Source: the human T2T-CHM13v2.0 reference genome, Homo sapiens
Direction: 5' to 3' (one strand)
Assembly (NCBI RefSeq): GCF_009914755.1
Contig: NC_060933.1
DNA length: 64,000 bases
The notes under the pieces are model-generated. The model was given only the letters and a program-made list of their open reading frames with translations. It made no database searches and had not been told where the DNA came from. Shown in pieces: positions 10,961-13,876 of the stretch. A program made the position numbers and the translations under genes. The stretch's first letter is position 1; each line of letters begins with the position of its first letter.

Positions 10961-11358
10961 GCCTGGGAGGAGCACTTCAAGAAGCAGGCGCCAAGTGGCC
11001 ACCGGAGGGAGTCCAGGAACTCCCCCAGGCTGCCAGCCAGACTACAATGCAGTCTGGGGAGAATATTACAGACAGCAAGCCGCTTACTACGGACAGATCC
11101 CAGGTCCCGGCAGCCATGCATCAGGGACAGCAGCAGGCTCAATGAATGGAATGAATGTGAACTTCTTCATCTGTGAAAAATCTTTTTTTTTTTTTTCATT
11201 TTTTTCTGTTTGGGGGCTTCGGTTTTGTTTGGCGAGAGAGCGATGGCTGCCGTGAGGAGTATAGGGGAGCCCTTGCGGCAAGCTTGGGGGCTCAGGGACT
11301 TGGGAGCGTGCCGGGCCCTCACTCTCTCGCCCGTTCTGAGTCTCACATGCTTTTTCTT

Positions 11359-13502
11359 ATATATATATATATATTTTTTTTTTAATTATACTTTAAGTTC
11401 TAGGGTACACCTGCACAACGTGCAGGCTTGTTACGTATGTATACATGTGCCATGTTGGTGTGCTGCACCCATTAACTCGTCATTTACATTAGGTATATCT
11501 CCTAATGCTATCCCTCCTCCCTCCCCCCACCCCACAACAGGCCCCGGTGTGTGATGTTCCCTTTCCTGTGTCCAAGTGTTCTCATTGTTCAATTCCCACC
11601 TATGAGTGAGAACATGCTGTGTTTGCTTTTTTGCTCTTGCGATAGTTTGCTGAGAATGATGGTTTCCAGCTTCATCCATGTCCCTACAAAGGACATGAAC
11701 TCATAATGTTTTATGGCTGCATAATATTCCATGGTGTATAAGTGCCACATTTTCTTAATCCAGTCTATCGTTGTTGGACATTTGGGTTGGTTCCAAGTCT
11801 TTGCTATTGTGAGTAGTGCCATAATAAACATACCTGTGCATGTGTCTTTACAGCAGCATGATTTATATTCCTGTGAATATATAGCAAGTAATGGGATGGC
11901 TGGGTCAAACGCTATTTCTAGTTCTAGATCCCTGAGGAATCACCACACTGTCTTCCACAATGGTTGAACTAGTTTACAGTCCCACCAACAGTGTAAAAGT
12001 GTTCTTATTTCTCCACATCCTCTCCAGCACCTGTTGTTTCCTGACTTTTTAATGATTGCCATTCTAACTGGTGTGAGATGATATCTCATTGTGGTTTTGA
12101 TTTGCATTTCTCTGATGGCCATTGATGGTGACCATTTTTTCATGTGTCTGTTGGCTGCATAAATGTCTTCTTTTGAGAAGTGTCTGTTCATATCCTTTGC
12201 CCACTTGTTGATGGGGTTGTTTTTTTCTTGTAAATTTGTTTGAGTTCTTTGTGGATTCTGGATATTAGCCCTTCGTCAGATGAGTAGATTGCAAAAATTT
12301 TCTCCCATTCTGTAGGTTGCCTGTTCACTCTGATGGTAGTTTCTTTTGCTGTGCAGAAGCTCTTTAGTTTAATTAGATCCCATTTGTCAATTTTGGCTTT
12401 TGTTGCCATTGCTTTTGGTGTTTTAGACATGAAGTCCTTGCCCATGCCTATGTCCTGAATGGTATTGCCTAGGTTTTCTTCTAGGATTTTTATGGTTTTA
12501 GGTCTAAAATTTAAGTCTTTAATCCATCTCGAATTAATTTTTGTATAAGGTGTAAGGAAGGGATCCAGTTTCGGCTTTCTACATATGGCTAGCCAGTTTT
12601 CCCAGCACCATTTGTTAAATAGGGAATCCTTTCCCTATTTCTTGTTTTTGTCAGGTTTGTCAAAGATCAGATGGTTGTAGATGTGTGGCATTACTTCTGA
12701 GGGCTCTGTTCTGTTCCATTGGTCTCTATCTCTGTTTTGGTACCAGTACCATGCTGTTTTGGTGACTGTAGCCTTGTAGTATAGTTTGAAGTCAGGTAGT
12801 GAGATGCCTCCAGCTTTGTTCTTTTGGCTTAGGATTGACTTGGCAATGTGGGCTCTTTTTTGGTTCCATATGAACTTTAAAGTAGTTTTTTCCAATTCTG
12901 TGAAGAAAGTCATTGGTAGCTTGATGGGGATGGCATTGAATCTATAAATTACCTTGGGCAGTAAGGCCATTTTCACAATATTGATTCTTCCTATCCATGA
13001 GCATGGAATGTTCTTCCATTTGTTTGTGTCCTCTTTTATTTCGTTGAGCAGTGGTTTGTAGTTCTCTTTTGTAAGTTGGATTCCTAGGTATTTTATTCTC
13101 TTTGAAGCAATTGTGAATGGGAGTTCACTCATGATTTGGCTCTCTGTTTGTCTGTTATTGGTGTATAAGAATGCTTGTGATTTTTGCACATTGATTTTGT
13201 ATCCTGAGACTTTGCTGAAGTCGCTTGTCAGCTTAAGGAGATTTTGGGCTGAGACGATGGGGTTTTCTAAATATACAATCATGTCATCTGCAAACAGGGA
13301 CAATTTGACTTCCTCTTTTCCTAATTGAATACCCTTTATTTCTTTCTCCTGCCTGATTGCCCTGACCAGAACTTCCAACACCATGTTGAATAGGAGTGGT
13401 AAGAGAGGGCATCCCTGTCTTGTGCCAGTTTTCAAAGGGAATGCTTCCAGTTTTTGCCCATTCAGTGTGATATTGGCTGTGGGTTTGTCATAAATAGGTC
13501 TT
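11359..13502 (-). mobile_element. 5'-truncated L1PA (L1PA4/5-like): ORF2 RT/C-terminal part, 3' UTR and poly(A)
   Basis: ORF track gives [10 protein letters not shown]...[13 protein letters not shown] (12635-13435) and downstream ORF2 pieces; L1 3' UTR; tail degraded to (TA)n/T at 11359-11383. Confidence 0.97.
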
Positions 13503-13716
13503 TGTGCCTGTAGTCCCAGCTACTCAGGAGGCTGAGGCTGGAGGATCGCTTGAGTCCAGGAGTTCTGGGCTGTAGTGTGCTATGCGTATCGGGTGTCCAC
13601 ACTAAGTTTGGCATCAATATGGTGACCTCCTGGGAGTGGGGACCACCAGGTTGCCTAAGGAGGGGTGAACTGGCCCAGGTCGGAAACGGAGCAGGTCGAA
13701 ACTCCCATGCTGATCA
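13503..13716 (+). pseudogene. RN7SL151P: 7SL (SRP) RNA fragment, approx. nt 17-231, truncated at both ends
   Basis: gcctgtagtcccagctact...ggctggaggatcgcttgagtccaggagttctgggctgtagtg...ggaggggtgaactggcccaggtcggaaacggagcaggtc...gctgatca contains the S domain, which Alu lacks. The locus symbol is from recall. Confidence 0.95.
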
Positions 13717-13876
13717 CATGCTTTTTCTTTCAAAATTGGGATCCTTCAGGTTGAGCCAGCCAGAGAAGATAGCGAGGTGTAAATCTCTCCAAAAAAGAAA
13801 CCTTACAAATTAAAAAAAAAAAAACAAAAACAAATAGCAAAGCAGAAGTTATTAAGTTATATATCTATATATAAAA

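What the first reader, a model, noticed from the sequence alone, without database searches (positions are those of the whole stretch)
11343..13729. L1-7SL chimera with opposite orientations in one TSD: apparent twin priming in trans on a second RNA
Seen: a perfect 16-bp TSD tcacatgctttttctt (11343-11358 / 13714-13729) encloses a minus-strand L1 (poly(A) at the left) fused at 13502/13503 to plus-strand 7SL (approx. nt 17-231). The 7SL part has no poly(A) or TSD of its own, and its end (...gctgaTCA) overlaps the TSD start by 3 nt (TCA, 13714-13716). Established: template-switch chimeras such as U6-L1 are co-oriented. L1 5' inversions arise by twin priming, in which the second-strand 3' OH anneals internally on the RNA through short microhomology. 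Inference: here the second primer (...catgTGA-3') annealed to UCA in a different RNA, 7SL, copied it toward its 5' end, and the two cDNAs were joined. 7SL is a plausible partner because its Alu domain with SRP9/14 binds ribosomes, the route proposed for Alu capture of ORF2p. This points to a two-template priming route that makes tailless, inverted ncRNA pseudogenes; standard annotation would list the two parts as unrelated repeats.
Basis: partly seen in the sequence, partly recalled or inferred. Interest (0 to 1): 0.85.

Follow-up and report, generated by a model that had tools for sequence, protein, structure and literature searches.

The report
Inverted 7SL–L1 retrocopy, one insertion
A truncated L1 element and an oppositely oriented, tailless piece of 7SL RNA were very probably pasted into an old KHSRP pseudogene in a single retrotransposition event, a clean but already published kind of two-template "twin priming" product.

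Summary
An exact 16-bp duplication (11343-11358 / 13714-13729) encloses a minus-strand 5'-truncated L1 (11384-13502, tail 11359-11383) joined at 13502/13503 to plus-strand 7SL nt 18-231. The 7SL has no poly(A) and no TSD of its own, and TCA is shared with the TSD. The KHSRP parent gene on chr19 serves as an empty site: it has one copy of the 16-mer and unbroken flanks.

The geometry fits second-nick ("twin") priming on a second RNA. That mechanism is already in print. Doucet et al. 2015 drew it for U5/U1/U2/U6-L1 chimeras. Law & Burns 2025/2026 extended it to 5S, tRNA, 7SK and 7SL. Mendez-Dorantes et al. 2024 recovered de novo two-RNA, opposite-orientation insertions. This locus is not among Law & Burns' five 7SL/L1 loci.

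The 7SL endpoint is not site-specific. In my sample, 5 of 11 tailless 7SL copies end at nt 228-235, and so does the published chr17 chimera. This is the 5f loop (231-AG).

One item is unexplained. The target just right of the first nick resembles 7SL 229-299. None of 10 other tailless copies shows this, and Rfam does not detect it.

Verdict: a new member of a known kind. Orthologue timing could not be tested.

The parts
11343..11358 (.). Left copy of the 16-bp target-site duplication TCACATGCTTTTTCTT. Its 3' end (…TTTTTCTT/) is the first-strand nick that primed the L1.
   Evidence: single copy in the KHSRP parent
11359..11383 (-). L1 tail. In L1 sense it reads A10 followed by (TA)8, abutting the TSD. 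The target has no TA repeat at this point, so the repeat belongs to the insert or grew from the tail.
11384..13502 (-). 5'-truncated L1, 2119 bp, from the C-terminal half of the RT domain to the 3'UTR. Branch length is about 2.7%.
13503..13503 (+). Junction base T. It is either 7SL C17 after a CpG transition or an untemplated base. The L1/7SL join has 0-1 nt of microhomology.
13504..13716 (+). Tailless 7SL retrocopy, nt 18-231 (annotated RN7SL151P). It has 12 substitutions and 1 indel over 215 nt, counting position 17. Eight of the substitutions are CpG transitions.
13714..13729 (.). Right copy of the TSD. Its first 3 nt (TCA) are also 7SL 229-231. On the minus strand, …GCATGTGA-3' is the inferred second-nick primer.
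13730..13800 (+). Target flank (KHSRP 3'UTR sequence, present in the parent) that resembles 7SL nt 229-299 in the same orientation, starting exactly at the first nick. Unexplained, and possibly chance.
9376..14273 (+). Host: processed pseudogene KHSRPP1. Its flanks are 84-90% identical to the parent 3'UTR, so it is older than the insertion.
   Evidence: annotation supplied with the finding

Best explanation
This is a single L1 retrotransposition event that used two templates.

Steps:
1. Inferred: ORF2p nicked the + strand after …TTTTTCTT. That 3'-OH primed the L1 poly(A), and cDNA synthesis ran about 2.1 kb into ORF2.
2. Shown by the 16-bp TSD: the minus strand was cut 16 nt away.
3. Inferred: the minus-strand 3'-OH (…GCATGTGA-3') paired with UCA229-231 of a 7SL RNA, in the exposed 5f loop, and was extended to about nt 17-18.
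4. Inferred from a junction with 0-1 nt of microhomology: the two cDNA ends were joined essentially blunt, NHEJ-like.

The product reads TSD, poly(T), L1(-), 7SL(+, nt 18-231, no tail), TSD. This is the published 'twin priming on a second RNA' class of antisense small-RNA/L1 chimera.
For: - One exact 16-bp TSD encloses both parts. The paralogous empty site in KHSRP shows that nothing else was gained or lost.
- The 7SL has no tail and no TSD of its own.
- Orientation and polarity are those of twin priming: the 7SL 3' end abuts the reciprocal end, with 3 nt of shared sequence.
- Nick asymmetry follows Doucet's criterion. The L1-side nick is T-rich (TTTTTCTT/TC). The 7SL-side nick is not EN-like (TGTGA/GACT). 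Among the 10 stand-alone tailless 7SL copies, the 7SL-priming strand has an EN-like nick that is clear in 3, partial in 3 and absent in 2, with 2 unresolved (my reading of the flanks).
- A 16-bp TSD plus 3-nt microhomology matches the de novo twin-priming signature: discrete 12-18 bp TSDs, and 71% of junctions with 2 bp or more of microhomology (Mendez-Dorantes 2024, passages).
- The published chr17 7SL/L1PB2 chimera, fetched here, has the same layout. Its 7SL ends at nt 232-234 and overlaps the TSD by 2 nt. Law & Burns report contemporaneous arrival for that locus from cross-species alignments.
- Ages are compatible. The L1 branch is 2.67%. The 7SL non-CpG divergence is 4 of about 187 sites, roughly 2%.
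- No other copy of the junction exists among the 40 best-scoring hits.
Against: - There is no orthologue evidence that L1 and 7SL arrived together. The empty site is paralogous (the parent gene), so it shows only that both are insertions, not that they were simultaneous.
- The first-nick site fails Law & Burns' simple EN rule. In L1 orientation it reads GA/AAGA.
- The age comparison has little power, with only 4 non-CpG changes in the 7SL.
- Three nucleotides of microhomology are expected by chance in 1 of 64 cases.
- The locus is absent from Law & Burns' 7SL sheet (5 loci, none on chr9). That could reflect a pipeline miss at a site inside a lineage-specific pseudogene (my inference from their methods). 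It could also mean their alignments did not support co-arrival.
Confidence: 0.8

Rival explanations
1. End-joining capture. A 7SL cDNA made elsewhere, or primed off-target, was ligated between the L1 cDNA end and the reciprocal DNA end during repair of the TPRT break. It was not primed by the second-nick 3'-OH.
For: The L1/7SL join is blunt, and the other join has only 3 nt of microhomology, which suits MMEJ as well as priming. Mendez-Dorantes 2024 describe opposite-orientation two-RNA insertions as a joining of DNA ends.
Against: The intact, discrete 16-bp TSD implies that the reciprocal end was not processed. The 7SL endpoint coincides with the internal-priming hot spot of stand-alone tailless copies, which do carry TSDs: 5 of 11, counting this locus. 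Captured cDNA would be expected in either orientation and with variable ends.
Confidence: 0.1
2. Two sequential insertions. Either a tailless 7SL retrocopy (nt 1-231) inserted first and made the 16-bp TSD, and an L1 later landed exactly at its 5' boundary, deleting about 17 nt of 7SL and making no TSD. Or an L1 came first and a 7SL later inserted exactly at the L1 5'/TSD boundary.
For: Stand-alone tailless 7SL copies with TSDs and the same endpoint exist (L005, L020, L073, L079). Two of the 8 resolved stand-alone copies also lack an EN-like priming nick. The same pseudogene took a second tailless insertion 150 bp away.
Against: It requires a base-exact hit on a boundary plus a TSD-less insertion. 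The T-rich nick that fits L1 priming would then be a coincidence. No third copy of the 16-mer and no secondary TSD is present. Published members of the class were shown to arrive contemporaneously (Law & Burns).
Confidence: 0.07
3. Ordinary cis event from a source L1 that already carried an antisense 7SL insert. The 7SL would then be part of the L1 transcript, reached by transduction or by 5' truncation inside it.
For: None found.
Against: The junction 131-mer is unique among the 40 scored hits, and all 39 others match only one half. The 5' truncation would have to fall exactly at the 7SL hot-spot endpoint.
Confidence: 0.01

Closest known systems
Inverted snRNA/L1 chimeras formed by twin priming (Doucet et al. 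2015, Mol Biol Evol; Group IV 'twin')
   Same: A 3'-truncated small RNA lies in opposite orientation at the 5' end of a 5'-truncated L1. One TSD encloses both. The EN-type site appears only in L1 orientation. The RNA end and the insertion site share complementarity, and the truncation falls in a loop (passages).
   Different: The template here is 7SL rather than U5/U1/U2/U6. The inserted piece (214 nt) is longer than an snRNA fragment.
7SL/LINE-1 chimeric insertions in Law & Burns 2026 (Cell Genomics; Table S3, 7SLRNA sheet)
   Same: Same RNA and same antisense layout. Their chr17 (7SLRNA:46-234, L1PB2) and chr3 (27-202, L1PB4) loci are the comparators. I checked chr17 directly: it reads TSD, poly(T), L1(-), 7SL(+), TSD, with the 7SL ending at nt 232-234 and overlapping the TSD by 2 nt.
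   Different: This locus is not in their list (5 loci, none on chr9). Its L1 is younger, with nearest copies 93-94% identical. Its empty site is documented by a parent gene rather than by other species.
Tailless retropseudogenes (Schmitz 2004, not held; Noll 2015; Kojima 2010 for 7SL)
   Same: The 7SL is 3'-truncated, has no A-tail, ends in a loop, and shares a few nt with the target.
   Different: The stand-alone members resolved here have their own TSD and mostly an EN-like nick on the priming strand. Here the 7SL shares the L1's TSD and sits at the non-EN nick.
Classical L1 5' inversion by cis twin priming (Ostertag & Kazazian 2001; cited through, not read)
   Same: Second-nick priming with microhomology, a discrete TSD, and end-joining of two cDNAs.
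   Different: The inverted segment is not L1 sequence.
U6/L1 chimeras by template switching or RtcB ligation
   Same: A small RNA fused to a 5'-truncated L1 within one TSD.
   Different: Those are co-oriented and usually carry full-length U6. Here the orientation is opposite and the RNA is 3'-truncated.

Membership tests
Antisense small-RNA/L1 chimera by twin priming on a second RNA (Doucet 2015; Law & Burns 2026) | A single TSD encloses both the L1 and the small-RNA piece | tested here: met
   Exact 16-mer at 11343-11358 and 13714-13729, and one copy in the parent KHSRP
Antisense small-RNA/L1 chimera by twin priming on a second RNA (Doucet 2015; Law & Burns 2026) | The small RNA is at the L1 5' end, in opposite orientation, 3'-truncated, without an A-tail | tested here: met
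   7SL nt 18-231 on the + strand abuts the minus-strand L1 at 13502/13503, and no tail is present
Antisense small-RNA/L1 chimera by twin priming on a second RNA (Doucet 2015; Law & Burns 2026) | The L1 3' end with poly(A) sits at an EN-type nick, and there is no EN-type nick in the small RNA's orientation | tested here: inconclusive
   The L1 side is TTTTTCTT/TCAAAA. It is T-rich, but the nick is followed by TC, and it fails the [1T/3A] rule as GA/AAGA. The 7SL side is TGTGA/GACT, clearly not EN-like.
Antisense small-RNA/L1 chimera by twin priming on a second RNA (Doucet 2015; Law & Burns 2026) | Complementarity between the RNA at its truncation point and the reciprocal DNA end | tested here: met
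   3 nt (TCA = 7SL 229-231 = TSD nt 1-3). This is weak taken alone.
Antisense small-RNA/L1 chimera by twin priming on a second RNA (Doucet 2015; Law & Burns 2026) | The truncation falls in a loop or single-stranded region of the RNA | tested here: met
   G232 is unpaired in the Rfam consensus structure. 231-AG is the 5f loop (Wild 2019, passage). The endpoint recurs in 5 of 11 tailless copies and in the chr17 chimera.
Antisense small-RNA/L1 chimera by twin priming on a second RNA (Doucet 2015; Law & Burns 2026) | Contemporaneous arrival of both parts in cross-species alignments | not testable with these tools
   No primate genomes or multi-species alignments are held. Only compatible divergences were obtained.
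Template-switch / RNA-ligation chimera (U6/L1 type) | The small RNA and the L1 are in the same orientation | tested here: not met
   The strands are opposite
Cis twin priming (L1 5' inversion) | The inverted segment derives from the same L1 RNA | tested here: not met
   The inverted segment is 7SL, 93-94% identical to the chr14 genes
Stand-alone tailless retropseudogene | Its own TSD directly flanks the truncated RNA copy | tested here: not met
   No repeat of 8 nt or more flanks the 7SL alone. Its 5' neighbour is L1.

The most novel reading that the evidence does not exclude
Template choice at the reciprocal end may have been guided by homology. The target DNA that begins exactly at the first nick (13730-13800, already present in the KHSRP 3'UTR) resembles 7SL nt 229-299 in the same orientation, followed by an A-run. 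The 3' third of a 7SL RNA could therefore have paired with the exposed minus strand and held UCA229-231 next to the 16-nt 3' overhang ending in TGA. That would be RNA-DNA homology-splinted trans twin priming. It would predict that fossil Alu/7SL tails attract 7SL or Alu RNA to L1-induced breaks.
Probability: 0.08. Interest if true: 0.5.

Novelty: new member of a known kind. Interest (0 to 1): 0.27.

Why it matters
The locus adds a well-documented example to a very small set. Law & Burns list five 7SL/L1 loci, of which two are clean antisense cases. It shows that the L1 machinery can copy two different RNAs from the two ends of one break.

Its particular value is the paralogous empty site. Because the target lies in a processed pseudogene, the parent mRNA gives the exact pre-insertion sequence without needing another species.

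The survey also ties second-nick priming on 7SL to the same internal hot spots used by stand-alone tailless 7SL retrocopies: the helix-8 tetraloop near nt 199-201, A213-216, and the 5f loop at 231-232. That points to RNA accessibility, more than target microhomology, as what sets the endpoint.

It does not open a new mechanism.

Tried and rejected
- The full-length 7SL call is rejected. cmscan reported RF00017 over 13483-13789 as model 1-299. Base-level alignment shows real 7SL only at 13504-13716. The ends are a forced extension into the L1 and the KHSRP flank.
- The homology-tether idea was tested in four ways:
  - The flank beats shuffles: local score 24 against a shuffle maximum of 19 (0 of 1000), and anchored score 21 against a maximum of 10 (0 of 500).
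  - Equal or better similarity occurs in 35 of 2450 random 100-nt windows and at 130 of 17,522 anchored positions of this window, all Alu tails.
  - None of the 10 stand-alone tailless copies shows it. The number of shuffles reaching the observed score ranged from 24 to 297 of 300.
  - Rfam finds no SRP match in the parent 3'UTR at E up to 10.
  - I keep it only as a low-probability reading.
- Search for more antisense 7SL-L1 neighbours. Among 49 pseudogenes in 52 unique 7SL loci, only this one has an L1 abutting the 7SL 5' end. The scan used one young L1 copy as reference. It failed to detect the L1PB2 of the published chr17 chimera, so it is blind to old L1 families. The loci were also only the best-scoring BLAST hits, so 7SL endpoints below about nt 190 are under-sampled.
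- Schmitz 2004 and Ullu & Weiner 1984 are not held. What I say of them is recalled or taken from citing papers.
- L1 age: I built no consensus. I used star decomposition of pairwise distances to the five nearest copies. This may underestimate age, because those copies were chosen for similarity.
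Full report
**1. Observation**

- **TSD.** TCACATGCTTTTTCTT occurs exactly twice in the 64-kb window, at 11343-11358 and 13714-13729. 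With up to 2 mismatches allowed, 0.13 matches are expected, and none of 100 shuffles gave two.
- **L1 end.** Between the two copies, the + strand reads (AT)8, then T10, then the reverse complement of an L1 3' end.
- **L1 body.** It runs from 11384 to 13502 on the minus strand. Its longest frame matches the C-terminal half of Pfam RVT_1 (E 3.8e-19, profile 106-205 of 205). Forty genomic L1 copies match it at 92-94% identity.
- **7SL.** From 13504 to 13716 the + strand is 7SL RNA nt 18-231. Numbering follows a chr14 7SL gene that Rfam scores at 293 bits over model 1-299.
- **Junction base.** The T at 13503 may be C17 after CpG decay.
- **No tail, no private TSD.** The 7SL piece has no A-tail. 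No repeat of 8 nt or more lies between its 40 nt upstream and its 70 nt downstream.
- **Overlap.** Its last three bases, TCA, are also the first three of the right TSD copy.

**2. Empty site**

The insertion lies in the 3'UTR part of the processed pseudogene KHSRPP1, so the parent gene provides a pre-insertion sequence.

- Left flank plus TSD maps to chr19:6402787-6402990 at 90% identity.
- TSD plus right flank maps to chr19:6402646-6402802 at 84% identity.
- The two overlap by exactly 16 bp, and the parent has a single copy of the 16-mer with unbroken flanks.

L1 plus 7SL therefore account for all the inserted DNA, and no target sequence was lost. This shows that both parts are insertions. 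It does not show that they arrived together.

**3. Junctions and nicks**

- A 131-nt probe across 13502/13503 matched end to end only at this locus. Of 2521 candidates, 40 were scored, and the other 39 matched one half only. No source element carrying the same junction was found.
- Compared with five other L1 copies, the L1 stops at …AAGA(C)CTATTT, and the next base is not L1. The L1/7SL join therefore has 0-1 nt of microhomology.
- The + strand nick implied by the TSD is TTTTTCTT/TCAAAA. It is T-rich but is not followed by AA. In L1 orientation it reads GA/AAGA, which fails Law & Burns' simple [1T/3A] rule.
- The minus-strand nick is TGTGA/GACT, which is not EN-like.
- This asymmetry, with an EN-type site only from the L1's point of view, is the argument Doucet et al. 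used for second-nick priming.

**4. Ages**

- The 7SL piece differs from the gene by 12 substitutions and one indel in 215 positions. Eight of the substitutions are CpG transitions, out of 14 CpGs in that segment. That leaves about 4 non-CpG changes in roughly 187 sites, or about 2%.
- I built no consensus. Star decomposition of pairwise distances to the five nearest L1 copies (4.6-5.3%) gives a 2.67% branch for this L1. The other copies give 1.8-2.7%.
- The two ages are compatible, but four substitutions give little power.
- The host pseudogene is older: its flanks diverge from the parent by 10-16%.

**5. The 7SL endpoint is a class property**

I examined 52 unique 7SL loci taken from the best-scoring hits of two searches.

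| Group | Loci | Features |
|---|---|---|
| Genes | 3 | chr14 |
| Full-length type | 38 | 33 with a clear A-tail, 5 with a degenerate or interrupted tail; 84-90% identical to the gene |
| 3'-truncated, tailless | 11 | includes this locus |

In the tailless group the flanking repeat abuts the 7SL end directly in most copies; I could not resolve a TSD in two (L076, L078). Their endpoints cluster:

| Endpoint (7SL nt) | Copies |
|---|---|
| 196-201 | 4 |
| 215-216 | 2 |
| 228-235 | 5 (this locus, L005, L020, L073, L079) |

- The five copies ending at 228-235 share 2-4 nt with the start of their TSD.
- No endpoint falls between 236 and 284.
- Sampling is biased against endpoints below about nt 190, because the loci are the best-scoring hits.
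- In the Rfam consensus structure, 198-201 is the helix-8 tetraloop and G232 is an unpaired base in helix 5.
- Wild et al. 2019 name 231-AG as the 5f loop at a ribosome contact (passage). A 2021 review says SRP68 bends the RNA so that the 5f loop contacts the ribosome (passage).
- This fits the published rule that tailless truncations map to loops or single-stranded, often A-rich, regions with 2-18 nt of target complementarity (Noll 2015, passages).
- Kojima 2010 had already reported tailless 7SL retrocopies.

So the shared TCA is probably not the only reason the piece ends at nt 231.

**6. What is already known**

- **Doucet et al. 2015** (passages). Their Fig. 1 c'/d' shows reverse transcription starting directly on a U5 snRNA at the top strand after second-strand cleavage. 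The product is a 3'-truncated, inverted snRNA joined to a 5'-truncated L1 within one TSD. They assign 7 of 30 snRNA-retrotransposon associations to this route.
- **Law & Burns** (bioRxiv 2025, Cell Genomics 2026). I read the abstract, sections 11, 18 and part 1 of section 34, further passages, and part 1 of 3 of Table S3. They add 7SL, 7SK, tRNA, Y RNA and 28S as L1 partners. They state that chimeras from RNA processing or template switching are co-oriented, whereas twin priming gives opposite orientations.
  - Their 7SLRNA sheet has five loci. Two are clean antisense cases: chr3 (7SLRNA:27-202, L1PB4) and chr17 (7SLRNA:46-234, L1PB2). None is on chr9.
  - A search of the four held supplementary files for numbers beginning 21695 to 21700 found nothing. 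The hg38 position I searched for rests on a recalled gene coordinate, so the firm statement is that the fully read 7SL sheet lacks this locus.
  - Their pipeline needs the pre-insertion allele in many assemblies. A site inside a lineage-specific pseudogene could be missed. That is my inference.
- **Mendez-Dorantes et al. 2024** (preprint, passages). They report nine de novo insertions built from two RNAs. They interpret the opposite-orientation ones as the two DNA ends each extended by RT from a different template. They also find that 5'-inverted insertions have discrete 12-18 bp TSDs and that 71% have 2 bp or more of microhomology. This is the signature seen here.

**7. Direct comparison with a published member**

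- The chr17 TSD motif from Table S3 occurs 54 times in the assembly (the reversed control pattern occurs 68 times). Two of the matches lie 546 bp apart on chr17.
- That locus reads TSD, poly(T), L1(-), 7SL(+), TSD. Its 7SL aligns to at least nt 55-234 and ends …GATCAG+TA, where the TA is shared with the TSD.
- The anatomy and the endpoint cluster are the same as here.

**8. An unexplained detail**

- cmscan stretched its 7SL match into the right flank. The reason is that the target, starting exactly at the first nick (13730), resembles 7SL 229-299: TCA…TGGGATC…CCAGCC…ATAGCGAG…TCTCT, followed by an A-run. This sequence is already in the parent 3'UTR.
- It beats shuffles: 0 of 1000 on the local score and 0 of 500 on the anchored score.
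- However, similarity of that strength occurs in 1.4% of random 100-nt windows (35 of 2450) and at 0.7% of anchored positions (130 of 17,522) in this window, because Alu tails are so common.
- None of the 10 stand-alone tailless copies shows it.
- Rfam does not detect SRP RNA in the parent at E up to 10.
- I keep a homology-tether reading at about 8%.

**9. Verdict**

- The best explanation is a single TPRT event with second-nick priming on 7SL (confidence 0.8).
- The rivals are end-joining capture of a 7SL cDNA (0.10), two sequential insertions (0.07), and a pre-formed source element (0.01).
- The mechanism and the 7SL/L1 class are published, so this is a new member of a known kind.
- The decisive orthologue test could not be run with the tools available.

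Noticed in passing
window 13879-14128 (TSD-like repeats about 13862-13878 and 14129-14145) and window 17771-18026 (minus strand): The second 'intron' of KHSRPP1 is another insertion relative to the parent 3'UTR, whose flanks overlap by about 17 bp. The 250-bp insert has exactly one other copy in the assembly. That copy lies 3.6 kb away in this window, inverted, at 94% identity, and has no poly(A). It looks like a tailless templated copy of local sequence, in the sense of a minus-strand transcript such as an intron of LOC107987026. Its divergence is similar to that of the L1/7SL event.
   Followed up: partly
window 13730-13800; parent chr19 (L010/L013): The KHSRP 3'UTR contains a stretch resembling 7SL/Alu nt 229-299 followed by an A-run, starting exactly at the L1 first-strand nick. 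It may be a fossil 7SL-derived tail or chance. Rfam does not detect it.
   Followed up: yes
window 13483-13789: cmscan reports the 7SL hit as a complete model match (1-299, 109 bits), although only 13504-13716 is 7SL. The ends are aligned to the L1 and to the KHSRP flank, so coordinates from such global-style hits overstate the element.
   Followed up: yes
window 12235-13801 (minus strand): According to the supplied annotation, the terminal exon of the predicted lncRNA LOC107987026 is built almost entirely from this chimera: L1 in sense and 7SL in antisense, plus a little KHSRPP1.
   Followed up: no
loci L003, L005, L006, L020, L022, L073, L076, L077, L078, L079: Stand-alone tailless 7SL retrocopies end in three clusters: nt 196-201 (helix-8 tetraloop), 215-216 (A213-216) and 230-235 (5f loop). 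The least diverged are 96-99% identical to the gene, above every tailed full-length copy (84-90%), though four of the ten are 89-94%. This suggests that recent 7SL retroposition in the human lineage is mostly of the tailless type. The sample is biased toward best-scoring hits.
   Followed up: partly
window 11359-11374: An (AT)8 microsatellite sits between the L1 A-tail and the TSD. It is absent from the parent target, so it came with the L1 tail or grew from it.
   Followed up: no
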